From: a virus
Lineage: Duplodnaviria; Caudoviricetes
Direction: 5' to 3' (one strand)
IMG/VR virus record: IMGVR_UViG_3300025909_000005
DNA length: 64,000 nt
Positions 14,969 to 33,714 of the stretch are shown one piece after another. The number at the start of each line of letters is the position of its first letter. The stretch's first letter is position 1. The notes beneath the pieces were generated by a model, which was given only the letters and a program-made list of their open reading frames with translations, made no database searches and was not told where the DNA came from. The position numbers were made by a program, and so were the translations under genes.

Positions 14969-15613
14969 ATGCCAAACGCAGTTGTAAAGAGCTACGCCAA
15001 GAAGACTGGAAAGTCGCCTGAGCACATCGAAGGATGGTGGAAGGAGGCCGAGAAGGAAGCCAAGAAGAAGTTCCCAAAGAAGGGCCCTCACTACTGGGCG
15101 TACGTGAACGGCATCGTGAAGCGCCGTGGTGGCATCAAGGAGGTCATCGGCTTCCGTGACTTCGTTGACCTGCTCTCAGAAGAGGATGGCGGTGAGAAGG
15201 AGTCAGCGCTCTCCAAGATGTCCAAGGAACACGGTCCTGTCCTGGACAGGATCGAGAAGATCAAGGACCTTGGGCGCACCTTCGACAAGGCTCTCAAGGC
15301 TGACGGAGATGAGAAGGCGAAGGGCAACTACGCGCACTGGCTGAAGACGACCGACAAGTACCGAGTCGCCTACTTCACCGACACCGATCTCGACATTGAA
15401 ACCGTCCTCGTCTTCCGCGGCCACAAGTGCTTCGGCCTGGCATCGAAGAACGACAGCGACGCAATCATCGACTTCAAGTTCGTGCCAATGGAACGCAGCG
15501 ACTGGCAGGCGATCGAGGACTTCAGCTTGGACAACCTTGACTCCTCGGCTACAATCACTGATGAGAACCTCGACCACTATGTTGAGATGATTCTCCAGGC
15601 CACTCATAAATAA
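14969..15613 (+). CDS. hypothetical late protein
   Basis: RBS TAAGGA; basic N-terminal domain. Confidence 0.75.
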   Translation: MPNAVVKSYAKKTGKSPEHIEGWWKEAEKEAKKKFPKKGPHYWAYVNGIVKRRGGIKEVIGFRDFVDLLSEEDGGEKESALSKMSKEHGPVLDRIEKIKDLGRTFDKALKADGDEKAKGNYAHWLKTTDKYRVAYFTDTDLDIETVLVFRGHKCFGLASKNDSDAIIDFKFVPMERSDWQAIEDFSLDNLDSSATITDENLDHYVEMILQATHK

Positions 15614-19851: not shown

Positions 19852-20421
19852 ATGACGTAGGTTTTCTCCCCCAAGCTGCAGGCTCTTCGTGAGAAGATGG
19901 CCGCCTGCAACCAGACCCAAGGCCAGACCATTCTCCAGCACGGCGAGTCCGTGGCCGAGTGGTACAAGGACCTGATTGGTGCACGCACACGTGAGTGGCG
20001 CCTGCCTGACTGGTTCGATCCCGCCCTCTTCGAGCTCTGCCCAGATGTGGGGACGATGGAGCGCTACCACATCTACCATGATTGTGGTAAGCCGTACTGC
20101 CGTACGGTTGACGAAGAAGGTCGTCAACACTTCCCTGACCATGCCCGTATCAGCGCCTCCATCTGGCGCGTGACCGGTGGCGACGCGGCTGTTGCTCGTC
20201 TCATCGAACACGACATGGACATGCACACCCTCAAGCCGGCAGATGCCGACACCTACCTGCACCTGGACATTGCTCCAGCTCTGCTTCTCACCGCCCTTGC
20301 TGAACTGCACTCCAACGCCGACATGTTCGGCGGGATCGAGAGCACGTCCTTCAAGATCAAGTTCAAGAACCTCAACAAGCTCGGCAACCGCCTCATCAAC
20401 CGCATCAAGGAGATCGCATAA
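19852..20421 (+). CDS. HD-domain phosphohydrolase with in-frame TAG at codon 3
   Basis: RBS TAAGGA 7 nt before ATG ACG TAG; in frame with ATG 19897; HG..V, YHDCGKP, HFPDHA, HDMDMH. Confidence 0.75.
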
Positions 20422-23939: not shown

Positions 23940-23972
23940 AAGGCCGATCACTGTAAATAGGTGATCGGCCTT
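23940..23972 (+). terminator. 12-bp hairpin (terminator-like) with late promoter TAAATA in its loop
   Basis: AAGGCCGATCAC-TGTAAATAG-GTGATCGGCCTT followed by TCTTCT. Confidence 0.7.
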
Positions 23973-23993
23973 TCTTCTATCCAGGACCACCAC

Positions 23994-24671
23994 ATGAAAC
24001 TCGAAGACATCTGCATCAACGAAGAGGACGGCAAGCTGACTGCCCTCGCTGATGCCGCTGAGCAGCACCACCCTGACATCAAGGACGTGGTCAAGAACTT
24101 CCCCAACACCTACAAGAAGGCGATCCACGTTCTTCTTGCCAAGAGCCGCCTCATGTACAACGGCAAGGCGATCTATGATGGCTCCCACAACGGTGAAGCG
24201 ATCGAAGACGCCTACGCAGCCGCGAAGGAAGCAGTGAAGGGCCAAACAGTGGAAGTCGACGTTGACATGGACGGCTCACACGCCGACATGGACGACGCCA
24301 CCTCGTACACGATCGAAGCCGAGGTTGACGACGCAGAGCCGGTCTGGGCTGGTTACTCTGTCAAGAACGGTGATCTCTACGTTGGTCTTGACGCGTGGCT
24401 GAACGAGAATGAATTCAATGAGAAGTGGGACCATAACTTCGAACGCACGTTCGGTGAGGACCACGACCTCGACAACCCTGACCATGACAAGATCTTCCAA
24501 GCTGCTTGGAAGACATGGATCGAACACCAACACTTCCAGGGCGTGCTTGTTCGCGTCAGCGGCGACCATGCTGAAGTTGTAGAGACTCGCCCAGGCGGCT
24601 TCCACAAGGGCATCCTTCACGGCCACGGCAGCTACGAAATTTCTTCTCAGAAGATCATCCCTCTCGAATGA
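23994..24671 (+). CDS. acidic late protein
   Basis: late promoter, RBS AGGA. Confidence 0.75.
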   Translation: MKLEDICINEEDGKLTALADAAEQHHPDIKDVVKNFPNTYKKAIHVLLAKSRLMYNGKAIYDGSHNGEAIEDAYAAAKEAVKGQTVEVDVDMDGSHADMDDATSYTIEAEVDDAEPVWAGYSVKNGDLYVGLDAWLNENEFNEKWDHNFERTFGEDHDLDNPDHDKIFQAAWKTWIEHQHFQGVLVRVSGDHAEVVETRPGGFHKGILHGHGSYEISSQKIIPLE

Positions 24672-24874
24672 CAGCCACGCCTAATCCTATGGAACGAGTT
24701 GCGGCCCTTGAGAAGCAGGTCATTCTCCTGCTGAAGGTGACGAAGGAGCAGGAGACGCGGATCAAGAAGCAAGAGGCGGCAATTGCAGCCCTGAGGAAGG
24801 AGCATGCTGCCCACAAGGATCATGTCAACCTCATTCAACGTGGCGTACACGATCTTCAGAACAGGGTCAAGTGA
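24668..24874 (+). CDS. coiled-coil hypothetical protein
   Basis: 68 aa, ATGA overlap. Confidence 0.6.
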   Translation: MTATPNPMERVAALEKQVILLLKVTKEQETRIKKQEAAIAALRKEHAAHKDHVNLIQRGVHDLQNRVK

Positions 24875-24929
24875 CAAGTCAACCTGCACAAACGTCCACG
24901 CTTTTCGGGCGAAACGCATATATAATCTC

Positions 24930-25040
24930 ATGAACGCAAACCTTACATCACTCGCCGCTTTGGTCGCACTGCTTCCTGGATCAGGTTGCAGCTCGCTGTC
25001 CCCTGCTGCGGTCTATGTAACAAAGGGTTCCCGAATCTAA
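24930..25040 (+). CDS. 36-aa near-leaderless small ORF
   Basis: TATAAT at 24921, ATG 24930, followed by a terminator. Confidence 0.35.
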   Translation: MNANLTSLAALVALLPGSGCSSLSPAAVYVTKGSRI

Positions 25041-25058
25041 CGAGTGCTAAGCTCTAGA

Positions 25059-25097
25059 CGAAGGGACCCTCTGAAAAGACGGTCCCTTTGTTGTTTT
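25059..25097 (+). terminator. intrinsic terminator
   Basis: AAGGGACC...GGTCCCTTT followed by GTTGTTTT. Confidence 0.65.
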
Positions 25098-25104
25098 CAA
25101 GGTT

Positions 25105-25332
25105 ACAAAATTTGTGTGTACAAGCACGCAGCCGATGATAGAATAGCTTCATCGGTTGAAAAACTGATAACGAGTTAGGTCTTCCAAACAAAGACTGCGT
25201 CCGCAGATGGACTCTCTGAGACGGGAAAATTCTGCAGTTTGAACACTGATTGCAAAATTTGTGTACAAGCAAACGAAGTTGTTGTAAAATAGCTTCTTCA
25301 GTCAAACAACGGTTTGATTGGTTCTTTAACAA
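25105..25332 (+). promoter_or_regulatory. tandem promoters plus boxB-like hairpin and boxA (rrn-like leader) of the tRNA array
   Basis: P1 TGTACA-16-TAGAAT, P2 TGTACA-17-TAAAAT, shared CAAAATTTGTG upstream; hairpin 25299-25320; GGTTCTTTAACA 25320-25331. Confidence 0.7.
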
Positions 25333-25339
25333 TTTGAGA

Positions 25340-25456
25340 TGCCAACAGCTTACGCTATCTGGCGACAATCGAGATTGGTTCACTTCATCGCGGGCTCCGG
25401 GGTGTTGGACTAGTAGAAGGTCTCGTAGCTTGATAGACGTAAGAGGACTGTTGGCA
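25340..25456 (+). ncRNA. 117-nt rod-shaped structured RNA of unknown family
   Basis: TGCCAACAG/CTGTTGGCA, CTTACG/CGTAAG, CTATC/GATAG, CGAGAT/GTCTCG stacked stems. Confidence 0.5.
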
Positions 25457-25540
25457 GTGGAGCAAGGGTCTCGGTAGCCTTGCTTAAATTCCCATGTGCC
25501 CTCACAAGAACACGTGGAGTCCATCACAACAGTCCATTCT

Positions 25541-25615
25541 GGGTCCTTAGCTCAGCGGTAGAGCCCCTCCCTTACAAGGAGATTGTCGTAGGTTCGATCC
25601 CTACAGGACCCACCA
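25541..25615 (+). tRNA. tRNA-Val(TAC)
   Basis: cloverleaf, loop CTTACAA, CCA. Confidence 0.9.
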
Positions 25616-25683
25616 TATCAAAGCGCTCCATGGTAGCGTAAGTCTTTTCATGCGGCCGCCGGTCGAGCGTTTTGATATGGTAA

Positions 25684-25808
25684 GGTGTTTGTGGGCAAGA
25701 GACGAAGCCGCCTGCGATTAAGTGGGTTCCAAGTCAATGAGTAGCGTCACCCTTGGGGTCGCGAAAAGCGAGCAAACACGCTGGTTTGAATCCAGCCAAA
25801 CACCACCA
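25684..25808 (+). ncRNA. tRNA-like RNA with 8-bp acceptor, 5-bp T-stem and about 58-nt variable domain
   Basis: GGTGTTTG/CAAACACC-A-CCA; GCTGG-TTTGAAT-CCAGC. Confidence 0.6.
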
Positions 25809-25906
25809 TATCAAAGCACACTCGGTTGTGGCAAGATCAACCAACGTCTGCAGCGTATCCTGCCCAAGGGATCGTGGTTGCGCCTAGTGTGCTTTGATAT
25901 GGTAAT

Positions 25907-25995
25907 GTACGTGCTGTCCTAGGAGAGATAAGTGGATTGTAAATCCGCGGCATAAAAGTAAGTCTGAGTGGGTTCGAATCCCACCGCGTACACCA
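25907..25995 (+). tRNA. tRNA-Tyr(GTA), atypical D-arm
   Basis: loop TTGTAAA, long variable arm, CCA. Confidence 0.75.
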
Positions 25996-26004
25996 ACAGA
26001 ATTT

Positions 26005-26081
26005 GGGCTTGTAGTATTGGGGTTACGGCAGCGCCTTGCAAGTGCTGTGTCAGTGGGGTTCGATTCCCCCCAGGTCCACCA
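26005..26081 (+). tRNA. tRNA-Ala(TGC), atypical
   Basis: G3.U70, loop CTTGCAA, CCA. Confidence 0.75.
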
Positions 26082-26188
26082 AAATTCGCTGCGGCAACGG
26101 TCCTTCATGACGACTGCAGAGAAATGGAACATGAAGGCTGGTCGAACTACCTCCTTGCGAGACCTGCAAAATAAATCGTGGAGGTAAT

Positions 26189-26281
26189 GGAGATGTTAGC
26201 CGAGTTGGCCTAGCGGCAGCGGTCTTGAAAACCGAAGGTTCAGAAATGGACGTGTGAGTTCGAGTCTCACCATCTCCGCCA
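26189..26281 (+). tRNA. tRNA-Ser(TGA)
   Basis: loop CTTGAAA, long variable arm, G73, CCA. Confidence 0.9.
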
Positions 26282-26286
26282 TTGAG

Positions 26287-26492
26287 TTTGTTTTGATCTA
26301 AGTGTGGCTATTGGTTGCTGACAAAGTTCTGCGCTGTCTAGAGCAAGGGACCGAATCGGTGGCTGATATCGTGAAGTTCAAGTAGGGTTCGATTCCCAGC
26401 GGTTGAGGCCGTACAGGTGTCTTGCATGAATCGTTTGCCAGTCAGGAGCTAGACCTCCACCGATCCGTAACGGGCGCTTAGATCAAAACGAA
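26287..26492 (+). ncRNA. structured spacer RNA closed by an 18-bp stem
   Basis: TTTGTTTTGATCTAAGTG/CGCTTAGATCAAAACGAA; internal ATCGGTGG/CCACCGAT; T-loop-like GGGTTCGATTCCC. Confidence 0.55.
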
Positions 26493-26495
26493 TTT

Positions 26496-26571
26496 GGGGG
26501 ATTAGCTCAGCTGGGAGAGCGGCTGCTTTGCAAGCAGTAGGTCAACGGTTCGATCCCGTTATTCTCCACCA
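26496..26571 (+). tRNA. tRNA-Ala(TGC)
   Basis: canonical, G3.U70, CCA. Confidence 0.93.
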
Positions 26572-26655
26572 AAACAAGAAGGTTGTAGGTAGACGGTCTC
26601 TATGGCGCGTACCCGGAAGGGCAACGGCTACGAGTTGGAACCTTCACGAATAATT

Positions 26656-26732
26656 GTCGGGGTGGGAGAGTGGTCCATCCGAGGAGCTGCAACCTCCTAG
26701 ACGCATCGGTTCGATTCCGGCTCCCGACTCCA
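26656..26732 (+). tRNA. tRNA-Cys(GCA)
   Basis: loop CTGCAAC, U73, CCA. Confidence 0.85.
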
Positions 26733-26811
26733 AACATGCAACCGATCTGGCAGGCTTATCGGCAAAATATTCGCCTGTCAAACCTTTTTGTTGCACTTAC
26801 ACGAGACCTCG

Positions 26812-27207
26812 ATGATCTGCAAAGGCTGCGATAAGGAAACTTCGAATCTGAAATACTGTGACAATGCTTGTCAGCAAGTAGCTCAGACGAAGGCCAAAGT
26901 TGAAGCGTTCCTCGAAGGAAAATACGTCGGCAAATTCATGCAGTACGGGACCGGTTCCTGGCCGCGTAGAATGCTGATCGAACATTTTGGTTACAAGTGC
27001 AATGCGCCGGGTTGCACTGTCGCTGATACGTGGCTAGGAAAACCAGTCACGTTGGAAGTGAACCACATTGATGGCATTGCGACAAACAATGTCCTAACGA
27101 ATTTAGAATTCCTGTGCCCCACCTGTCACTCGCAGACGCCCAACTTTCGGGCTCTCAACAAGGTTTCAGTTAGAACGCACAGGAAGCCCCGAGCCCCTTT
27201 AGCATAG
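26812..27207 (+). CDS. HNH endonuclease inserted in the tRNA array
   Basis: LEVNHIDGIATNNVLTNLEFLCPTCHSQT; AT-richer than flanking genes; stop inside tRNA-Thr. Confidence 0.85.
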   Translation: MICKGCDKETSNLKYCDNACQQVAQTKAKVEAFLEGKYVGKFMQYGTGSWPRRMLIEHFGYKCNAPGCTVADTWLGKPVTLEVNHIDGIATNNVLTNLEFLCPTCHSQTPNFRALNKVSVRTHRKPRAPLA

Positions 27208-27267
27208 TGGCACTGCATCCGCCTTGTAAGCGGGAGATCGTCTGTTCGATTCAGACAAGGGGCACCA
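27193..27267 (+). tRNA. tRNA-Thr(TGT)
   Basis: loop CTTGTAA, CCA. Confidence 0.9.
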
Positions 27268-27275
27268 AGAATTTT

Positions 27276-27362
27276 GCGGTCGTGATGGAATTTGGTAGTC
27301 TTCACGCGTTGAGAACGCGTGGCTCTTAGAGCGTGCGGGTTCGACTCCCGCCTTCCGCACCA
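27276..27362 (+). tRNA. tRNA-Leu(GAG)
   Basis: loop TTGAGAA, long variable arm, CCA. Confidence 0.85.
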
Positions 27363-27368
27363 AGTTAT

Positions 27369-27447
27369 CTGTGTGTATTGTCAGTCTGGTTAGACGGCTG
27401 AGTTTGGAACTCGGAGGTCGCAGGTTCAAATCCTGCCACACAGACCA
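27369..27447 (+). tRNA. tRNA-Pro(TGG)
   Basis: loop TTTGGAA, C1-G72, A73. Confidence 0.85.
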
Positions 27448-27475
27448 AGTTATTGTGATACAATGAAAGTTCAAT

Positions 27476-27552
<77 letters not shown>

Positions 27553-27607
27553 TTCACCTACTCGCGTGAAGTAAACGCAGCTGACATCTTCAACAACGGA
27601 GTATGTC

Positions 27608-27889
27608 ATGCGAGTATCAGTGAAGCAAGTTGTTAACGTAGCATTCGCCCACCATGGCGCTCGTACGTTGTCTCCTGGCTGCCTTGGCGAAAATCCTTCG
27701 GGATGGACGATCACAGGTGAAGTGATGGAAGACTACGTTGAGTGGGTCAACTACTTCGAAGCAACGCATCCTACTCTCGGGTGGGTACGCGGCGACTACG
27801 AAGGAATTGTCGAAGCGAAGTCGAAGAAGGCGTACGCGCACTTCATTGAACACCACCCTCCACAAGAGTGGGACTACTGGGACATCTAA
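27608..27889 (+). CDS. hypothetical protein within the tRNA array
   Basis: RBS GGAG, 93 aa. Confidence 0.7.
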   Translation: MRVSVKQVVNVAFAHHGARTLSPGCLGENPSGWTITGEVMEDYVEWVNYFEATHPTLGWVRGDYEGIVEAKSKKAYAHFIEHHPPQEWDYWDI

Positions 27890-27958
27890 CGCCCTTCCTC
27901 TGCGTCATGAGGCTGCTTACCGCCAACGGGGAGAGCGTAAGTTAACAGTTGGATTTTA

Positions 27959-28034
27959 GCGGGCGTAATTCAGTTGGTAGAATGCTTCCTTGCCAAGGAA
28001 GTCGTCGTCGGTTCGAGTCCGATCACCCGCTCCA
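27959..28034 (+). tRNA. tRNA-Gly(GCC)
   Basis: loop TTGCCAA, U73, CCA. Confidence 0.92.
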
Positions 28035-28039
28035 AATTT

Positions 28040-28471
28040 ATGACACCAATCCAAGATTACATTCAGCTCCCACGAGAAACAAGACGTTCGCATCTTGATC
28101 TCACTGCTGAGTGCTCGAAGATCGGTGGAACGTCGAAGGAGTTCAAAGGGCTTCTTGCTTACCATCTTGGAACAACGATTCCATCTGGTCGTCAAGTTTT
28201 CCTCTGCCATGCATGCCATAATGGAGCTTGCTCCAATGTCAAGCACCTCTACTGGGGAACTCCAAAGGACAACTACATTGACTGTGTAGAAGATCGTGGA
28301 ACACTCCATGAAAGAAGTTTGAAAATTCACGGTCAAGAGTTTCTTGCAAAGCGCTACACGAGTGGAAGCTCAGCAGGCGGAAAGGGAAATTCTGGAAGAC
28401 CAAAATCCGAAGAGCACAAGCAAAAGATCGCTGAATCTCTGCGGAAGAAGAAAAATGCGGCTATGGTGTAG
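28040..28471 (+). CDS. HNH/His-Cys-type homing endonuclease with NUMOD3-like tail
   Basis: CHACHNGACSNVKHLYWGTPKDN; KSEEHKQKIAESL; stop inside the next tRNA. Confidence 0.8.
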   Translation: MTPIQDYIQLPRETRRSHLDLTAECSKIGGTSKEFKGLLAYHLGTTIPSGRQVFLCHACHNGACSNVKHLYWGTPKDNYIDCVEDRGTLHERSLKIHGQEFLAKRYTSGSSAGGKGNSGRPKSEEHKQKIAESLRKKKNAAMV

Positions 28472-28530
28472 TGGTAACCCATGACATTGCCAATGTTAAG
28501 ACGCGAGTTCGATTCTCGCTAGCCGCTCCA
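28457..28530 (+). tRNA. tRNA-Gly(GCC)
   Basis: loop TTGCCAA, U73, CCA. Confidence 0.88.
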
Positions 28531-28688
28531 AACACGTTCTGGTTTCGCTAATGAAGCGTAGTCAGATAGACAGACGATCCCGTGTAGTTCGTCTGCGACA
28601 TGCGCCAGCACGGTGGAAAAGTCCACAACTGTGGCCAGCGAGCATTGCTGATTACGAGTAGGGAGTGAAGCTCCGCGGCCCTACACAT

Positions 28689-28775
28689 GCGGGTGTGGTC
28701 CATAGGCGGGCACCAGCCTTCCAAGCTGGCAGTGCGCAAGCACGCAAGTGGGTTCGAGTCCCATCACCCGCTCCA
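28689..28775 (+). tRNA. tRNA-Gly(TCC) with long variable arm
   Basis: loop CTTCCAA, U73; V-arm GTGC-GCAA-GCAC. Confidence 0.8.
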
Positions 28776-28781
28776 AATTCT

Positions 28782-28867
28782 GGGTTCTGAGCAGCACTGG
28801 CGACTGCACCGGACTGTAAATCCGACGCCTTCGGGCATACTTGGTTCGACTCCAAGAGGACCCACCA
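28782..28867 (+). tRNA. tRNA-Tyr(GTA)
   Basis: loop CTGTAAA, long variable arm, CCA. Confidence 0.88.
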
Positions 28868-28872
28868 AATTT

Positions 28873-28947
28873 GCGGGAGTAGCTCAGTGAAAGAGCAGCC
28901 GGTGTATAACCGGACGGTCGTAGGTTCAAGTCCTACCTCCCGCACCA
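28873..28947 (+). tRNA. atypical tRNA, apparent anticodon TAT (Ile) with G33; D-loop lacks GG
   Basis: perfect acceptor and T arms; loop TGTATAA. Confidence 0.55.
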
Positions 28948-28949
28948 GG

Positions 28950-29230
28950 AATTTCAGAAGTACATGCCGCGGCGGAAGCACGACGGCTCCAAGAATTCCC
29001 ACGTGGCGGCGTGAATCCGCTAGTTTGTATAGTCTGTCACTTAACATGACTTTCGTCGCCATTACGTTACTGGTAGGCGTCAACTCAGGACCCCTGGCTT
29101 TCGACTCAAAATCGAAGGAGATACGAAGCTGCTGATGTCGGTGTTGTGAGAACCTTTTCGTTAGGGGAACTCTCTAGGTGCTTGAGCCAAATCTCTTGAA
29201 GTCGTGAGGGTGGAACCTGGCGCAGAAATT
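28950..29230 (+). ncRNA. about 280-nt structured spacer RNA, unknown
   Basis: non-coding; AATTTC/GAAATT ends, CATGACTT/AAGTCGTG, TGGCT/AGCCA stems. Confidence 0.4.
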
Positions 29231-29232
29231 TC

Positions 29233-29349
29233 GGGGACCTAGCTCAGTAGGTAGAGCACTGGATGAAAACGTTGCTGCATAGGTCGACCTTCAATGCACA
29301 ACGAAGTACGTACCGGCTGTCCGAGGTTCGAGCCCTCGGGTCCCCACCA
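29233..29349 (+). tRNA. tRNA-Phe-derived RNA with about 41-nt hairpin inserted in the anticodon loop
   Basis: perfect acceptor, D and T arms; GAGCA-CTGGA-TGAAAA, then insert CGTTG..CAACG, then ACCGG-CTGTC. Confidence 0.65.
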
Positions 29350-29354
29350 GAATT

Positions 29355-29493
29355 TGACAACCGATAGATTAGGATTATCATCCAAGCAGGTATACGTAGG
29401 TTCGAATCCTACACGGTGCGCAAGTGCCGTTCGACAAGTGGTAAAGTCACCCGCCTCGCCGCAAGGCATTTTCCTGTCGCTCCTTTGTTGTCA
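29355..29493 (+). ncRNA. circularly permuted tRNA-like module
   Basis: order: 3' anticodon strand, T-arm, 3' acceptor strand, GCAA loop, 5' acceptor strand, D-arm, 5' anticodon strand; outer TGACAAC/GTTGTCA stem. Confidence 0.65.
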
Positions 29494-29502
29494 CTTAGAT
29501 TT

Positions 29503-29588
29503 GCGGTTGTGATGGAATCTGGTAGTCTTCCTGTGCTCAGAACGCAGGGCCTTCGGGCGTGTGGGTTCGAATCCCACCTTCCGCACCA
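29503..29588 (+). tRNA. tRNA-Leu(CAG)
   Basis: loop CTCAGAA, long variable arm, CCA. Confidence 0.87.
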
Positions 29589-29593
29589 AACAA

Positions 29594-30001
29594 GTGTCCT
29601 ACTCTAGGATTAGTCATAGGAACGACCGGGAAATCATAACCGGATGTAAGCAAACCTATGGAGTGAGAGAGGAATGAGATTTTCCTCACGATTTAGCTCA
29701 CGTACCATGTGTACGAGGAGTATACGGCATCGTTCTGCGATGCTAGCCTATTTGATTGATGCCCTTAGCGGGGACAGTGTGGTGGCACGGATCGTTTTGC
29801 GGTAGTCACCTATGCATGAAGGTTCTTCCCAAGAGTAAGCAAACGTGAGGGGAGACGTCAATCACCAGTTGTCGTAACTGCAGCCTAAGGGTATGCAGTA
29901 CCGGCGCTTCGCCTGCCAATGGCTCCAGGTAGGGACGCACAGTGTGCCGAATCCGTTCAAGCCGGTTTGAGAATAAGGCTGCGTGCCGAATATAGGACCA
30001 C
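29594..30001 (+). ncRNA. about 410-nt structured RNA between tRNA-Leu and tRNA-Ser, unknown family
   Basis: closing GTGTCCTA/TAGGACCAC; several long-range pairings; no credible ORF. Confidence 0.5.
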
Positions 30002-30005
30002 AATT

Positions 30006-30097
30006 GGAGACATGGCAGAGAGGCCGATTGCGCCGGTTTGCTAAACCGGAGATCCACGAAAGTGGGTCCGTGGGTTCGAATCCCACTGTCTCCTCCA
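30006..30097 (+). tRNA. tRNA-Ser(GCT)
   Basis: loop TTGCTAA, long variable arm. Confidence 0.92.
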
Positions 30098-30104
30098 GAA
30101 TTTT

Positions 30105-30189
30105 GCACTCGTGGCGTAATTGGTAGCCGCGCTAGCTTGAGGTGCTAGAGGGGAAACCCGTGCTGGTTCGAGTCCAGTCGAGTGCACCA
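30105..30189 (+). tRNA. tRNA-Leu(GAG)
   Basis: loop TTGAGGT, long variable arm. Confidence 0.9.
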
Positions 30190-30317
30190 GAATGAACTCC
30201 CCTTCGAGGGAATCGCCGAACGTGGTAGGCGTAGAGCGCATGGCTAAGATCGATGATGCAGTGCGAGGCTAAGTAAAGACAACTCTTTCGGGTTATCAGA
30301 CCAAACCCGACCAACAT

Positions 30318-30409
30318 GGAGAAATGGCAGAGAGGCCGATTGCACAACCTTGGAAAGGTTGAGACCGGGTCAAACCGGTCCGTGGGTTCGAATCCCACTT
30401 TCTCCTCCA
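30318..30409 (+). tRNA. tRNA-Ser(GGA)
   Basis: loop TTGGAAA, long variable arm. Confidence 0.92.
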
Positions 30410-30525
30410 TGAAAGAAGACTGGCGTTCCATGCCCGGCCAAAAACCGTAATGCACATGAAAGTGTGGGGCTGTCAGGGAGAAATATGGTGGAAGTAAATC
30501 TCCTTCATCTTCATGAACAAGATTT

Positions 30526-30600
30526 CAGGGTGGGAGGCGTGTGGCAGCCGATGACGTCCGGAGCGTTGTAGTCAGGGTTCGACTCCCTGCACCCTGACCA
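30526..30600 (+). tRNA. tRNA-Pro(CGG), atypical loop (C33)
   Basis: C1-G72, A73, loop TCCGGAG. Confidence 0.65.
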
Positions 30601-30721
30601 GATTTACCTCGCGAGAGGGCTGCCCCTTGTCTACGGACCTGGGGACCAGCAAAGGAACAGCACATCGTGGTTTGCGGCTGTTCCCTTCACCAGCACAGGC
30701 TGGAGGAAGTCCACGAGATCA

Positions 30722-30797
30722 CGGTGCATGGAGTGAGAGGTTAACCGGCTGTGTAACATACAGTCTGATGTAGGTTCGAGTCCTACTGCACCGACCA
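30722..30797 (+). tRNA. atypical or pseudo tRNA (apparent loop GTAACAT)
   Basis: perfect acceptor and T-arm, weak D-arm. Confidence 0.5.
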
Positions 30798-30802
30798 ATT
30801 TC

Positions 30803-30885
30803 GTTTCGATAGCTCAAGGGACAGAGCACGTGGCCCAAGAGGTAGGTACGATGGAAAGCGGTTCGACTCCGCAACGAAACATCCA
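30803..30885 (+). pseudogene. degenerate tRNA-like gene
   Basis: D and T arms recognisable; anticodon arm irregular. Confidence 0.4.
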
Positions 30886-31051
30886 ATTTGAAGCGTTAGC
30901 ATGAGAGAATCCTGCATGCCTAATTGTCGTTTGTCCGAGGTCCGACTGGTTGTCGATGAACGATTACAGCGACGTGGATCGGCCGATCCTAGCTGTTTGT
31001 GACTACCTGGTTGTGGGGAGTAACGGTCCCACCGCTTCAATTCAATTTCAT

Positions 31052-31126
31052 GGGGGCAGCAATGGGTTGCGGTTCTCGCTGGCAGCGAGGATGTCTAGAC
31101 GAGTTCGATTCTCGCGGTCTCCACCA
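31052..31126 (+). tRNA. tRNA-Ala(GGC), atypical
   Basis: G3.U70, loop CTGGCAG, CCA. Confidence 0.7.
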
Positions 31127-31475
31127 GATTTGATCCAAGGCATTAGCCGCCCCTAGGCAAGTCCCAACGAAAGTTGAGGTGGAACGCAGTGTTGAAGCGT
31201 TGAGGATCGCCCGAACAAGTCACGGCTTGGAACTCCGCAGTGCGCCATGGAACTCTGCGTCGATAAGAGAAGGCAGTCGTGCACCAATTTGAGAGCTAGA
31301 TGCGGATACGGGACACCCACGTCGGAAAACCCTTCCACCGCCATGACAGAACGTAGACGAGCTAGTGGATGCAGCATGAAACCTCGTAGGCGTGGTTGCC
31401 GTAGAGGAAGTTCCCTGCTCTAGGCCAACCTACGCAGGCAATCACTGCTCTCAATGAACATGGTATAATGAACTC

Positions 31476-31691
31476 ATGATCCTCTGCAGCTGCGCGAACA
31501 TTCCTGAGAGCGTTGCTCGAGAGAAGCTTAAGACGCAAACGCTGTCTGAGTTCATGATCGAAACGAATTGCGCGATGCAGTGCGGCTCCTGCTGGCAGGA
31601 CCTCCTTGACATCGCAGATGAATACGACAACCGATCGACCAGGGTTATCTCCCATTCGACAACCCCTGGTCAACCTCCTTCGTTGTCATGA
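31476..31691 (+). CDS. bfd: bacterioferritin-associated ferredoxin-like [2Fe-2S] protein
   Basis: MILCSC...CAMQCGSC; own TGGTATAAT promoter. Confidence 0.7.
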   Translation: MILCSCANIPESVAREKLKTQTLSEFMIETNCAMQCGSCWQDLLDIADEYDNRSTRVISHSTTPGQPPSLS

Positions 31692-31695
31692 TTGC

Positions 31696-31772
31696 GCCCT
31701 TGTACGCTAATCGGCAGTGCGGCTCCCCTTAAAATGGAGTGGTTGTGGGCTCGAATCCCACCTTGGGCACCA
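31696..31772 (+). tRNA. tRNA-Leu(TAA), short variable loop
   Basis: loop CTTAAAA, A73, CCA. Confidence 0.78.
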
Positions 31773-31778
31773 ACCCTG

Positions 31779-31926
31779 TTGGCAAATGTTAGAGCAACCG
31801 CTTGATCTTGGATTATCTACTTTTATTGGTTAAAAACCCGGATACGTTCGACTCGTGTCATCCCTTTATGCCGGTGCACGGAAGGGAATTCTCCAAATCG
31901 CCTTTTGTTGCCCTAACATTTGCCAA
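31779..31926 (+). ncRNA. structured spacer RNA with perfect 14-bp closing stem and a T-arm module
   Basis: TTGGCAAATGTTAG/CTAACATTTGCCAA; GATACG-TTCGACT-CGTGTC. Confidence 0.5.
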
Positions 31927-31958
31927 TGATAAATAGTCCTCCAACAGGAGGACGATGA

Positions 31959-32303
31959 ATGTTGCTGAACGAACTGCTCGAGCTAAACGAAATGGCCGAG
32001 CTTGAAGAACTCTTCGAGAAGGAATGGTCTGACGCGGTGACGCACCGCAAGCCAGGCACCTTCGCCCCAAAGGGAACGCACTCCAAGTCCGCTGAAGAGA
32101 TCTTCAAGATCTACAAGCGACACAGGGTCTCTCCACATGGAGACGGCTCTGCAATTCAGATGCTGCAGTTCTTCATCAACCGTGCCGGAAAACGTCTGAA
32201 GCCGGAACGGAAACAGGAACTTGAGAAGGCCATTCGAATGCTTCAGGCGGACAACGCCAAGATGAAGGCAGAGAAGAAGGCCAAGGAAAAGAAGGACGAC
32301 TGA
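31959..32303 (+). CDS. DUF3175-like late protein
   Basis: KEWS...MLQFFINRAGKRL; late promoter. Confidence 0.65.
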   Translation: MLLNELLELNEMAELEELFEKEWSDAVTHRKPGTFAPKGTHSKSAEEIFKIYKRHRVSPHGDGSAIQMLQFFINRAGKRLKPERKQELEKAIRMLQADNAKMKAEKKAKEKKDD

Positions 32304-32307
32304 TTGT

Positions 32308-32381
32308 AGCGGGCGAGTGTGATGGTAGCACGTTGGGCTCATAACCCAGAGGGCCGGTTCGATTCCGAGGCGCCGCAACCA
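32308..32381 (+). tRNA. initiator-like tRNA-Met(CAT), irregular stems
   Basis: three G-C pairs closing loop CTCATAA, 1:72 mismatch. Confidence 0.65.
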
Positions 32382-32649
32382 AATCCGTAAGGATCGTGGA
32401 GATTCGCACATCTCCTAGTATAAAGTGGGCGGCTCGCGACCGCAATGACTCGGCTACCTGAGACTTCCTAACGGTGCTCATACGCGGCTAACAGAGTCCA
32501 CGACGGGTCCTAGCCCGTCACGAACAAATGGCATGCAGACGTGTATGCAAAGTCCCACGCCGGAACCAAGGACCTTCACAGGCACCAAAGACGGTGGGAA
32601 AAGGTGGGCGACGAACAGGGCAGAGCACCCTTCCTGTTTCACGAATTTA

Positions 32650-32728
32650 TGCGGAGGGCCGGCCAGCAGTCGGACGAGGTCTCATAAGCCACGGTAAAGA
32701 TGGGTGCGACTCCTAATCTCCGCTACCA
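32650..32728 (+). tRNA. tRNA with CAT anticodon (Met/fMet/Ile2), atypical
   Basis: loop CTCATAA, T-loop TGCGACT, U1.U72. Confidence 0.6.
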
Positions 32729-32745
32729 TAACTAGAAGGAAGCCC

Positions 32746-33075
32746 ATGAAGAAGATCCTCCTCGCGCTCAGTGCGCTCGTCTCCATTTCCGCCCTGGCTG
32801 CTCCTCAAGCTCCGGCCCCACAAGGAAGCTTTGAAACCCGCCCCGGCTGTATCTGGTCTCATGACGTTGCGCGATGCGCCGTGGACAATCACTCACGGGT
32901 AAACTTGAGCTGCACCGTGCATGTCTTCGGTCGCACCGAAAGGGGCTTCAAGATCGGCAACACACGCACCGTATCGGTTCCAGCCTTCAAGTACAACGAC
33001 GACGCTCGCCTCTATGCCGCTGAAGGCGACAAGCTCGTCAAGGTCGATGCAGAAGCAACCTGCTCGCCTGAATGA
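32746..33075 (+). CDS. small secreted protein
   Basis: signal peptide MKKILLALSALVSISALA, four Cys. Confidence 0.75.
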   Translation: MKKILLALSALVSISALAAPQAPAPQGSFETRPGCIWSHDVARCAVDNHSRVNLSCTVHVFGRTERGFKIGNTRTVSVPAFKYNDDARLYAAEGDKLVKVDAEATCSPE

Positions 33076-33084
33076 AAACGCGCG

Positions 33085-33157
33085 GTCTCGGTATCTTAAC
33101 TGGTAAAGACGCCTCCCTTATAAGGGGTAGATCTAGGTTCGAATCCTAGTCGAGACA
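33085..33157 (+). tRNA. tRNA-Ile(TAT), no encoded CCA
   Basis: loop CTTATAA, A73, canonical T-arm. Confidence 0.75.
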
Positions 33158-33168
33158 CACAGAACAAC

Positions 33169-33245
33169 GCGGGTGTGACGCAATTGGTAGACGTACTGGA
33201 TTTAGAATCCAGGTCCTGAGGGTTCGAGTCCCTCCACCCGTACCA
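33169..33245 (+). tRNA. tRNA-Leu(TAG), short variable loop
   Basis: loop TTTAGAA, CCA. Confidence 0.85.
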
Positions 33246-33250
33246 AACAT

Positions 33251-33340
33251 GGATTGTGCGGAGCATGGCGCTCAACTGCCCTCGAAAAGCAGCGTGTCGG
33301 TGATGAGCCGGCAGGGGTTCGATTCCTCCACTCTCCGCCA
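33251..33340 (+). tRNA. tRNA-Ser(CGA)
   Basis: loop CTCGAAA, long variable arm, G73. Confidence 0.8.
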
Positions 33341-33485
33341 AGATATGGAAGACGCGGCGTCGAAACCGCGTGGTAGTTCGGCCGAACGGTCCGGTAGCGG
33401 GTGGCCACCTGCGAAAGACTTAGAACCTGATTTGGCTCGCGGGGTTCGACTCCTCGCAGGTAAAACCAACTTCCATTTGAACTCT

Positions 33486-33563
33486 GCCCTTGTACGCTAA
33501 TTGGAAGACGCGCGCGAGCTCAAACCTCGTGGGTTGTCGGTTCGAATCCGACCTTGGGTACCA
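33486..33563 (+). tRNA. tRNA-Leu(CAA), short variable loop
   Basis: loop CTCAAAC, CCA. Confidence 0.8.
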
Positions 33564-33714
33564 CCATATGGCATCTCAGATTGAGACCCCACCCCACACT
33601 GATTTGCGATCTGTAGCTTTTACAGATCGCATGTTGTCGTTCCCGGCCCCGCCAGCCGGTGTCCGGATAAATACCCATACGTGCTACGATGTTGTAGCTC
33701 TTCCTCAAGGAATC

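What the first reader, a model, noticed from the sequence alone, without database searches (positions are those of the whole stretch)
25105..25335. tRNA array leader mimics a bacterial rRNA operon (P1/P2, boxB, boxA)
Two near-duplicate promoters about 145 nt apart (CAAAATTTGTG..TGTACA-16/17-TARAAT-AGCTTC) are followed by a 9-bp hairpin directly abutting GGTTCTTTAACA, a 10/12 match to E. coli boxA TGCTCTTTAACA. This boxB-boxA order is that of rrn leaders, which recruit NusA/B/E/G. Inference: the phage uses host rRNA antitermination to transcribe about 10 kb of mostly untranslated, Rho-sensitive RNA.
Basis: partly seen in the sequence, partly recalled or inferred. Interest (0 to 1): 0.72.

Follow-up and report, generated by a model that had tools for sequence, protein, structure and literature searches.

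The report
Ribosomal-type boxA leader on phage tRNA array
A giant soil phage starts its 8-kb block of tRNA genes with two promoters, a small hairpin and a copy of the "boxA" signal that bacteria use to keep RNA polymerase going through ribosomal RNA genes; a dozen related phages keep the same signal, so the phage probably borrows the host's rRNA transcription machinery, though no experiment shows it yet.

Summary
That motif is the only match in the 64-kb window to the published functional boxA consensus GYTCTTTAANA.

It is not chance. Thirteen syntenic phage lineages from IMG/VR and JGI metagenomes keep tandem TGTACA-N16/17-TAnAAT promoters, usually a co-varying 5' hairpin, and the boxA block in front of the same first gene, tRNA-Val(UAC). 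Two relatives carry extra promoter-hairpin-boxA cassettes, tandem in the leader or inside the array.

The TGTACA promoter is the ordinary promoter class of the clade (35 co-oriented copies in one 350-kb relative). Only the tRNA-array promoters are followed by boxA. The phage's exact 16-mer also sits in real rrn leaders and 16S-23S spacers of beta- and gammaproteobacteria.

Recruitment of host NusB/NusE and protection from Rho remain inference. The host is unknown, no RNA data were available, there is no boxC, and boxA position 2 varies. I found no paper on this. The same scan noted similar boxA leaders on other jumbo phages.

Verdict: new variant of a known kind, interest about 0.6.

The parts
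25057..25098 (+). Intrinsic terminator that closes the upstream unit (stem GGGACC..GGTCCC plus a T-rich tail)
   Evidence: dG -22.9 kcal/mol, z -4.6. The same AAAGGGACC..GGTCCCTTT hairpin stands before the promoters in relatives L142, L144 and L145.
25106..25144 (+). Promoter P1: A/T-rich CAAAATTTGTG, -35 TGTACA, 16-nt spacer, TG-extended -10 TAGAAT
   Evidence: It belongs to the clade-wide promoter class TGTACA-N16/17-TAnAAT: 35 co-oriented copies in G406, 0 in the reversed-pattern control.
25151..25168 (+). 5' hairpin of the P1 transcript (ATCGGTT..AACTGAT); no boxA follows it
   Evidence: It is homologous to the AGCTTCATCGGTT hairpin of the two L160 cassettes, where a boxA does follow.
25253..25290 (+). 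Promoter P2: CAAAATTTG, -35 TGTACA, 17-nt spacer, -10 TAAAAT
25298..25321 (+). boxB-like 5' hairpin, 10 bp, AACG loop, abutting boxA
   Evidence: dG -8.7 kcal/mol, z -2.5. A hairpin sits at this position in 11 of 13 lineages, with different stem sequences.
25321..25331 (+). boxA GTTCTTTAACA (extended form GGTTCTTTAACAATTT, 25320-25335)
   Evidence: 11 of 11 to GYTCTTTAANA (PMC5725501). Unique in the window. 28.9-bit outlier. Conserved in 13 lineages. The same 16-mer occurs in rrn leaders and spacers.
25336..25356 (+). Conserved block GAGATGCCAACAGCTTACGCT, the 5' strand of a long-range leader helix
   Evidence: Conserved as GRATGCCAACAGCTYAYGCTG in most lineages. In the MFE fold it pairs with 25438-25455.
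25438..25455 (+). 3' strand of the leader helix (CGTAAG..CTGTTGGC)
   Evidence: Strain L001 swaps the enclosed segment 25357-25525 but keeps both strands.
25541..33563 (+). tRNA array: 25 tRNA genes starting with tRNA-Val(UAC), other small RNAs and a few small ORFs
33601..33635 (+). Intrinsic terminator at the end of the array
   Evidence: 12-bp stem, dG -17.7 kcal/mol, z -5.0.

Best explanation
The stretch is the leader of an 8.3-kb, mostly untranslated transcription unit that holds the phage's main tRNA array.

Proposed sequence of events:
1. Host RNA polymerase starts at two tandem phage promoters, P1 and P2.
2. The P2 transcript begins with a small hairpin followed at once by a boxA (GTTCTTTAACA).
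3. As in bacterial rRNA operons and CRISPR arrays, host NusB-NusE(S10) binds the boxA RNA. With NusA, NusG and SuhB it converts the polymerase into a processive form that resists Rho.
4. That polymerase can finish the long ribosome-free transcript, and it may also help the RNAs fold.

Shown here: the elements, their order, their uniqueness in the window, their conservation, and their modular reuse in relatives.

Inferred: the start sites, Nus binding, and protection from Rho.
For: 1. The site is a perfect match to the functional boxA consensus GYTCTTTAANA (PMC5725501). It is the only match in 64 kb on either strand and a 28.9-bit outlier under a matrix built without it.

2. Synteny and conservation. 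In IMG/VR relatives (HD-gene protein 54-74% identical) the array also starts with tRNA-Val(UAC) and is preceded by the same parts: terminator, 2-3 TGTACA promoters, boxA block. A metagenome scan added seven more lineages. The leaders cannot otherwise be aligned.

3. Modularity. L160 has two tandem promoter-hairpin-GTTCTTTAAAA cassettes plus a third boxA. L158 has two further cassettes (promoter, ATCGT..ACGAT hairpin, GCTCTTTAAAA) inside its array. These copies lack the downstream GCCAAC block, so boxA behaves as a unit of its own.

4. Specificity. Relative G406 has 35 promoters of this class, all on one strand. Three of its four GYTCTTTAANA matches lie in the tRNA-array leader and the fourth lies in coding DNA.

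5. Position 1 (G) was left free in the metagenome pattern. It is G in 11 of 12 true relatives and in 3 of 76 chance hits.

6. The exact 16-mer GGTTCTTTAACAATTT lies in rrn leaders or 16S-23S spacers of beta- and gammaproteobacteria, each right after a hairpin. In Ca. Desulfobacillus the rrn promoter's -10 is 26 nt from boxA, against 29 nt at phage P2.

7. A strain about 96% identical overall has no difference across 24899-25430, against 3-5 differences per 100 nt in the flanking genes.

8. No NusB or NusG family was found in five relatives, three of them at least 97% complete.

9. The downstream unit is largely untranslated and ends at a strong terminator.
Against: - No boxC-like GU-rich element follows boxA.
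- boxA position 2 is G or A in 5 of 13 lineages, which departs from the Y of the gammaproteobacterial consensus. Three leader copies carry one further core mismatch (L140, L144, L266).
- Conservation runs about 25 nt past boxA into a helix strand. Part of the constraint may therefore serve processing or folding.
- The array RNA has G above C. Only 5% of its 80-nt windows are C-rich and G-poor, against 12% in coding DNA, so special Rho sensitivity is not evident.
- The host is unknown, so a match to its own rrn boxA is untested.
- A more distant relative with a complete genome (G411) has no such leader.
- In G406 the strict motif is no more frequent genome-wide than its reversed control (4 against 5). 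The evidence there is its clustering and position, not its count.
- There are no transcription or binding data.
Confidence: 0.68

Rival explanations
1. The conserved block is an RNA processing or folding signal rather than a Nus site. On this reading it is a single-stranded A/U-rich RNase E-type cleavage site next to a 5' stabilising hairpin, plus the 5' strand of a leader helix (perhaps an RNase III stem) that releases the leader from tRNA-Val. The likeness to boxA would then be incidental.
For: Conservation extends beyond boxA into GRATGCCAACAGCTYAYGCTG, which pairs with a stretch before tRNA-Val. 5' hairpins also follow promoters that have no boxA, namely window P1 and L142 P2. boxA position 2 is not constrained as the consensus predicts.
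Against: The boxA motif recurs without the GCCAAC block in four cassettes of two relatives, each time right after a promoter and hairpin. The core matches the Nus consensus at 10-11 of 11 positions in all 13 lineages, and G1 is kept. A generic A/U-rich cleavage site would not need this exact word. The two roles are not exclusive.
Confidence: 0.15
2. The hairpin plus the T-rich GGTTCTTT is a promoter-proximal intrinsic terminator or attenuator that limits transcription into the array.
For: The consensus scan lists 25298-25321 plus TTCTTTAACA as terminator-like.
Against: The stem is weak and AU-rich (-8.7 kcal/mol) compared with the phage's real terminators (-22.9 and -17.7). The T run is short and interrupted. 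Conservation covers AACAATTT, which a terminator does not need. In L145 and L144 the leader boxA has no hairpin before it. No alternative antiterminator pairing was seen.
Confidence: 0.05
3. The motif is a DNA-level operator for a phage or host regulator, or it is bound by a phage-specific RNA-binding factor instead of NusB-NusE.
For: The clade uses an unusual palindromic -35 (TGTACA), which hints at factor-dependent promoters. The host factors are untested.
Against: The motif is asymmetric and always on the transcribed strand. Its distance from the last -10 varies from 9 to 155 nt, which fits an RNA signal better than an operator. Its word is that of real rrn boxA elements.
Confidence: 0.07
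4. Chance resemblance in a recently duplicated promoter region.
For: In AT-rich relatives the motif occurs at background frequency.
Against: It is unique in the window. It is conserved at the homologous place in 13 lineages whose leaders otherwise cannot be aligned. It is reused in cassettes.
Confidence: 0.03

Closest known systems
rrn leader and spacer antitermination signals (boxB-boxA-boxC) and the rrn antitermination complex (NusA, NusB, NusE/S10, NusG, SuhB, S4) (PMC4807359, PMC6614797, PMC10250234)
   Same: Tandem promoters, then a hairpin, then boxA about 25-35 nt into a long untranslated stable-RNA transcript. The word is the same as in real rrn operons of beta- and gammaproteobacteria. 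Second copies lie inside the unit in one relative, like the 16S-23S spacer boxA. tRNA genes are also part of rrn operons.
   Different: It sits in a phage and heads tRNA genes only. There is no boxC. The promoters are the phage clade's own TGTACA type without a GC-rich discriminator. Binding of Nus factors is untested.
boxA elements upstream of CRISPR arrays (Stringer et al. 2020, eLife 9:e58182, PMC7665894, as cited in PMC7862264)
   Same: A boxA is placed at the head of a long, repetitive, untranslated array so that distal units are still transcribed. The proposed mechanism is suppression of Rho-dependent termination.
   Different: Chromosomal defence locus versus phage tRNA array. There the effect was measured; here it is predicted.
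boxA-regulated genes outside rRNA (suhB, rpsJ and others; consensus GYTCTTTAANA; PMC5725501)
   Same: The consensus is the same, matched 11 of 11 by the window's site.
   Different: Those sites repress or autoregulate protein genes. Here the expected effect is processivity on non-coding RNA.
Lambda nut sites (boxA-boxB with N protein) (PMC2800207, PMC2724277)
   Same: A phage uses the host NusB/NusE-boxA interaction to make polymerase resist termination.
   Different: In nut, boxA precedes boxB and a phage N protein is required. Here the hairpin precedes boxA (the rrn order) and no N-type protein is evident. The lambda boxA (CGCUCUUA) is a weakened variant, while this one fits the rrn consensus.

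Membership tests
rrn-type boxA (NusB-NusE binding RNA) | Sequence fits the functional consensus GYTCTTTAANA | tested here: met
   GTTCTTTAACA at 25321-25331, 11 of 11, the only match in the window.
rrn-type boxA (NusB-NusE binding RNA) | Lies on the transcribed strand shortly after a promoter, at the head of a long untranslated RNA | tested here: met
   It lies 29 nt after the -10 of P2. The promoter class is validated by 35 co-oriented copies against 0 in the control in G406. The 8.3-kb unit is mostly non-coding. The start sites themselves are predicted, not mapped.
rrn-type boxA (NusB-NusE binding RNA) | Conserved in relatives as a sequence island | tested here: met
   Found in 13 lineages, with extra copies in cassettes. 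Position 2 varies (T, C, G or A).
rrn-type boxA (NusB-NusE binding RNA) | Matches the boxA of the host's own rrn operons | tested here: inconclusive
   The host was not identified. The exact 16-mer does occur in rrn leaders and spacers of several beta- and gammaproteobacteria.
rrn-type boxA (NusB-NusE binding RNA) | Bound by NusB-NusE, and boxA-dependent readthrough of Rho-dependent terminators | not testable with these tools
   Needs binding and reporter assays. No RNA run was listed.
Complete rrn leader (boxB-boxA-boxC) | Hairpin (boxB) directly upstream of boxA | tested here: met
   Hairpin at 25298-25321. A hairpin is present in 11 of 13 lineages with covarying stems.
Complete rrn leader (boxB-boxA-boxC) | GU-rich boxC (TGTGTGGG-like) shortly after boxA | tested here: not met
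   No such element lies in 25332-25540. It is present in the real rrn leaders L027 and L164.
Lambda-type nut site | Order boxA then boxB, with a phage N-type protein | tested here: not met
   The order is hairpin then boxA. No search for an N protein was made.
Intrinsic terminator or attenuator | Stable GC-rich stem followed by an uninterrupted U tract | tested here: not met
   dG -8.7 with 3 GC pairs and tail GGUUCUUUAAC, against -22.9 and -17.7 for the phage's own terminators.

The most novel reading that the evidence does not exclude
This phage clade has evolved a portable promoter, 5' hairpin and boxA cassette, which it duplicates in front of and inside its tRNA arrays. Each cassette would load the host's rRNA antitermination complex, turning the array into a pseudo-rRNA operon. 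The array would gain rRNA-like speed, resistance to Rho and co-transcriptional folding help. It might also draw Nus factors away from the host's rrn operons during takeover.
Probability: 0.3. Interest if true: 0.75.

Novelty: new variant of a known kind. Interest (0 to 1): 0.62.

Why it matters
Many large phages carry long tRNA arrays, and how these ribosome-free transcripts escape Rho is not known. A conserved rrn-type boxA at the head of such arrays, and inside some of them, gives a concrete and testable answer. It extends Nus-factor antitermination from rRNA, CRISPR arrays and lambdoid nut sites to phage stable-RNA operons without an N protein.

It is also practical. It gives a simple sequence mark for the start of phage non-coding operons. 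Because boxA variants differ between bacterial groups, it may also give a clue to the host. The promoter-hairpin-boxA cassette could serve as a compact part for expressing long non-coding arrays.

Tried and rejected
- RNA evidence: no RNA holder was listed for 24800-27800, so no reads were laid.
- Relatives through the ORF just upstream (23961-24671): it is an ORFan, and only fragments of the same phage came back.
- Cultured jumbo phages that share tRNA-Val or NAMPT similarity (Stenotrophomonas RAS14, Ralstonia RsoM2USA): their tRNAs are interspersed with genes or few in number, so they are not comparable.
- Host through the phage tmRNA. BLAST against 401 Pseudomonadota genomes gave only T-arm hits.
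- Host through the tmRNA family. The phage tmRNA fits the beta two-piece family RF01850, but only 1 of 61 sampled genomes of that order has such a tmRNA. That genome's single GTTCTTTAACAATT match is not in an rrn operon. The host stays unknown.
Eight are in rrn operons.
- Metagenome scan for the boxA-GCCAA block: 109 hits, most of them chance in AT-rich DNA, and 12 distinct true relatives.
- Consensus fold of the leader between boxA and tRNA-Val: the alignment fails beyond the first 35 columns and no consensus structure came out.
- Rfam: no family in the leaders of the window or of L158 and L160.
- More distant relatives (G411-G415): strict motif at background level. In G411 both matches near the array lie in coding DNA, and the array leader has no boxA.
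- Minus-strand ORF 25054-25527 over the leader: no family and not conserved, so rejected as a gene.
- The idea that P1 and P2 are rrn-like promoters: rejected, because TGTACA promoters are the clade's general class.

Full report
**What is in the window**

The window comes from an uncultured giant phage (57% G+C). Its closest cultured relatives are only about 44% identical in protein sequence. Earlier notes of this scan describe it as a T4-like rhizosphere jumbo phage of more than 350 kb. I did not verify that.

On the + strand, 25 tRNA genes run from 25541 (tRNA-Val UAC) to 33563. Upstream lie the following:
- a small lipoprotein-like ORF (24930-25040);
- a strong intrinsic terminator (25057-25098, dG -22.9);
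- promoter P1: TGTACA, 16 nt, TG-extended TAGAAT ending at 25144;
- promoter P2: TGTACA, 17 nt, TAAAAT ending at 25290;
- a 10-bp hairpin (25298-25321, dG -8.7);
- GGTTCTTTAACAATTT (25320-25335).

P1 and P2 share an A/T-rich CAAAATTTGTG, the -35, the -10 and AGCTTC, while their spacers differ. That is the pattern expected of constrained promoter elements. The array ends at a second strong terminator (33601-33635, dG -17.7). The unit is about 8.3 kb long, not about 10 kb.

**Is the boxA more than chance?**

The published functional consensus for gammaproteobacteria is GYTCTTTAANA (PMC5725501). The window holds exactly one match on either strand, and it is this site. TTCTTTAACAATTT with up to two mismatches occurs once against 0.08 expected. 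A weight matrix built only from the relatives' sites gives this site 28.9 bits. The next best site in 128 kb scores 10.6, and the best in 30 shuffles scores 16.

**Relatives**

The ORF just upstream is an ORFan. The HD-domain gene 5 kb upstream (19897-20421) has relatives on large IMG/VR contigs. Earlier notes had said it is widely kept. In L140, L141, L142/L143, L144 and L145 (54-74% protein identity) the gene order is the same, and a tRNA array starting with tRNA-Val(UAC) follows 4-6 kb later.

All of these leaders hold the same parts:
- the GGGACC..GGTCCC terminator (seen in L142, L144 and L145);
- two or three tandem TGTACA-N16/17-TAnAAT promoters;
- a boxA block: TGCTCTTTAACAA in L141 (13 of 13 to E. 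coli), TGGTCTTTAACAA in L142, AGCTCCTTAACAA in L140, AGTTCTTTAAAAA in L145 and AGTTCATTAAAAA in L144.

Apart from this block the leaders cannot be aligned.

A metagenome scan with a pattern that left boxA positions 1 and 2 free returned mostly chance hits in AT-rich DNA. It also returned 12 distinct true relatives, each with TGTACA promoters upstream and tRNA-Val(UAC) downstream. In these, position 1 is G in 11 of 12, against 3 of 76 among the chance hits. Position 2 is T, G or A, and it is C in two of the IMG/VR relatives. Thirteen lineages in all share G-N-TCTTTAACAATTT-R-GAATGCCAACAGCTYAYGCTG.

A strain about 96% identical (L001, L007) has no difference across 24899-25430, against 3-5 per 100 nt in the flanking genes.

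**A modular cassette**

In L160 (contig G406, 97% complete) two tandem copies read as follows: promoter, AGCTTCA, hairpin TCGGTT..AACCGA, GTTCTTTAAAA. They precede a third boxA that carries the GCCAAC block. In L158 (G409) two further cassettes lie inside the array: promoter, hairpin ATCGT..ACGAT, GCTCTTTAAAA. This recalls the second boxA in the 16S-23S spacer of rrn operons.

These copies lack the GCCAAC block, so boxA is a unit of its own. A small hairpin starting 7-8 nt after the -10 (that is, at the predicted 5' end) precedes boxA in 11 of 13 lineages, with different and compensating stem sequences. Such hairpins also follow promoters without boxA (window P1, L142 P2). They may therefore also, or instead, stabilise the 5' end.

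**The promoters are ordinary; the boxA is special**

TGTACA-N16/17-TAnAAT occurs 35 times in G406, always on the gene-sense strand, and 0 times in the reversed-pattern control. The counts are similar in G407 and G408. P1 and P2 are thus real members of the clade's general promoter class. They do not mimic rrn promoters.

Of G406's four GYTCTTTAANA matches, three lie in the tRNA-array leader and one in coding DNA. The signal goes with the untranslated array, not with the promoter class. The raw count in G406 (4) is no higher than the reversed control (5), so position and clustering carry the argument. More distant relatives (G411-G415) show only background matches, and G411's array leader has none.

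**Comparison with real rRNA operons**

The host could not be identified. However, the phage's exact 16-mer lies in the following places:
- the rrn leader of Neptunicella marina and of a Paceibacterota MAG;
- the 16S-23S spacer of Ca. Desulfobacillus denitrificans (both operons), Methylonatrum, a Francisellaceae MAG, a Pseudomonadales MAG and an uncultured gammaproteobacterium.

In each case it comes right after a hairpin. In Desulfobacillus, Rfam confirms 16S, two tRNAs and 23S. The leader there reads TTGACC, 17 nt, TATAAT, 26 nt, TGTTCTTTAACAA, then a boxC-like GGTGTGGGTGC. The phage P2 leader has the same spacing (29 nt) but no boxC. The phage tmRNA fits the betaproteobacterial two-piece family, which agrees loosely with a beta- or gammaproteobacterial host.

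**The downstream unit**

Most of 25.3-33.6 kb is non-coding. Codon scoring, homology and conservation support only a few ORFs:
- an HNH endonuclease ORF (26788-27207);
- three small genes near the 3' end (31476-31691; 31959-32303, DUF3175; 32704-33075);
- possibly 27608-27889.

The RNA strand has G above C. Only 5% of its 80-nt windows are C-rich and G-poor, against 12% in coding DNA. Special sensitivity to Rho is therefore assumed, not shown. Faster elongation or folding help, as described for the rrn complex (PMC10250234, PMC8632103), may matter as much.

No NusB or NusG family was found in five relatives, so host factors would be used.

**Known biology and novelty**

Nus-factor antitermination at boxA is textbook for three cases:
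- rrn operons (PMC4807359, PMC6614797);
- lambdoid nut sites, where boxA precedes boxB and N is needed (PMC2800207);
- CRISPR arrays (Stringer et al. 2020, cited in PMC7862264).

Four full-text searches found no paper on boxA heading phage tRNA arrays. The one four-term hit concerned BOX-PCR primers. Earlier notes of this same scan report host-type boxA elements before RNA operons of Bacteroidota jumbo phages. The theme has therefore been seen before on other DNA. I did not test those cases.

I rate this a new variant of a known kind. The sequence-level findings are solid. The mechanism is well motivated but unproven (confidence 0.68).

Noticed in passing
window 25336-25525; L001 (IMGVR_UViG_3300005457_000177): Right after boxA a conserved strand (GATGCCAACAGCTTACGCT) pairs with CGTAAG..CTGTTGGC at 25438-25455 and encloses a strongly folded segment (z -3.6). 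The 96%-identical strain L001 keeps both strands but carries a different insert in place of 25357-25525. This looks like a swappable module inside a leader helix, perhaps a processing stem.
   Followed up: partly
G406, G407, G408 (IMG/VR relatives); window 25117 and 25262: The clade's general promoter class has a palindromic -35 (TGTACA) 16-17 nt before TAnAAT. It occurs 35, 13 and 20 times in the three records, nearly all on one strand, and 0 times in the control. A palindromic -35 kept this strictly may point to a phage factor or an unusual host sigma preference.
   Followed up: partly
L160:14800-14960 (- strand) and L145:14020-14070: A conserved RNA-like motif (GGGAAGCTGAAnCCGAGAAATCGGnnCAGTGAAAnGCC) lies in the leaders of two relatives, between or after the boxA cassettes. 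It is absent from the window and has no Rfam match.
   Followed up: partly
window 25615-25905: Between tRNA-Val and tRNA-Tyr lies a tRNA-like element with acceptor and T arms (GGTGTTTG..CAAACACCACCA) but a very long internal insert. Hairpins built on the repeated word ATATCAAAGC flank it. ARAGORN and Rfam do not call it.
   Followed up: no
window 24921-25040: A 36-codon ORF with a lipoprotein-type signal (LPGSGC) starts 3 nt after a TATAAT box, so the mRNA would be leaderless. It lies in the 532-nt stretch that shows no difference between strains.
   Followed up: no
window 26788-27207 and 31462-31691: An HNH homing-endonuclease ORF sits inside the tRNA array, with two copies in relative L142. 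A conserved 71-codon ORF follows a TG-extended -10 (TGGTATAAT) by 7 nt, which suggests an internal promoter with a leaderless mRNA just before tRNA-Leu(UAA).
   Followed up: partly
window 15528-15556: A promoter-like TGGACA, 17 nt, TACAAT stands just before the two-piece tmRNA gene. No boxA follows it. The short RNA loci of the window (tmRNA, suppressor tRNAs, RNase P RNA, tRNA-Arg) all lack boxA.
   Followed up: partly
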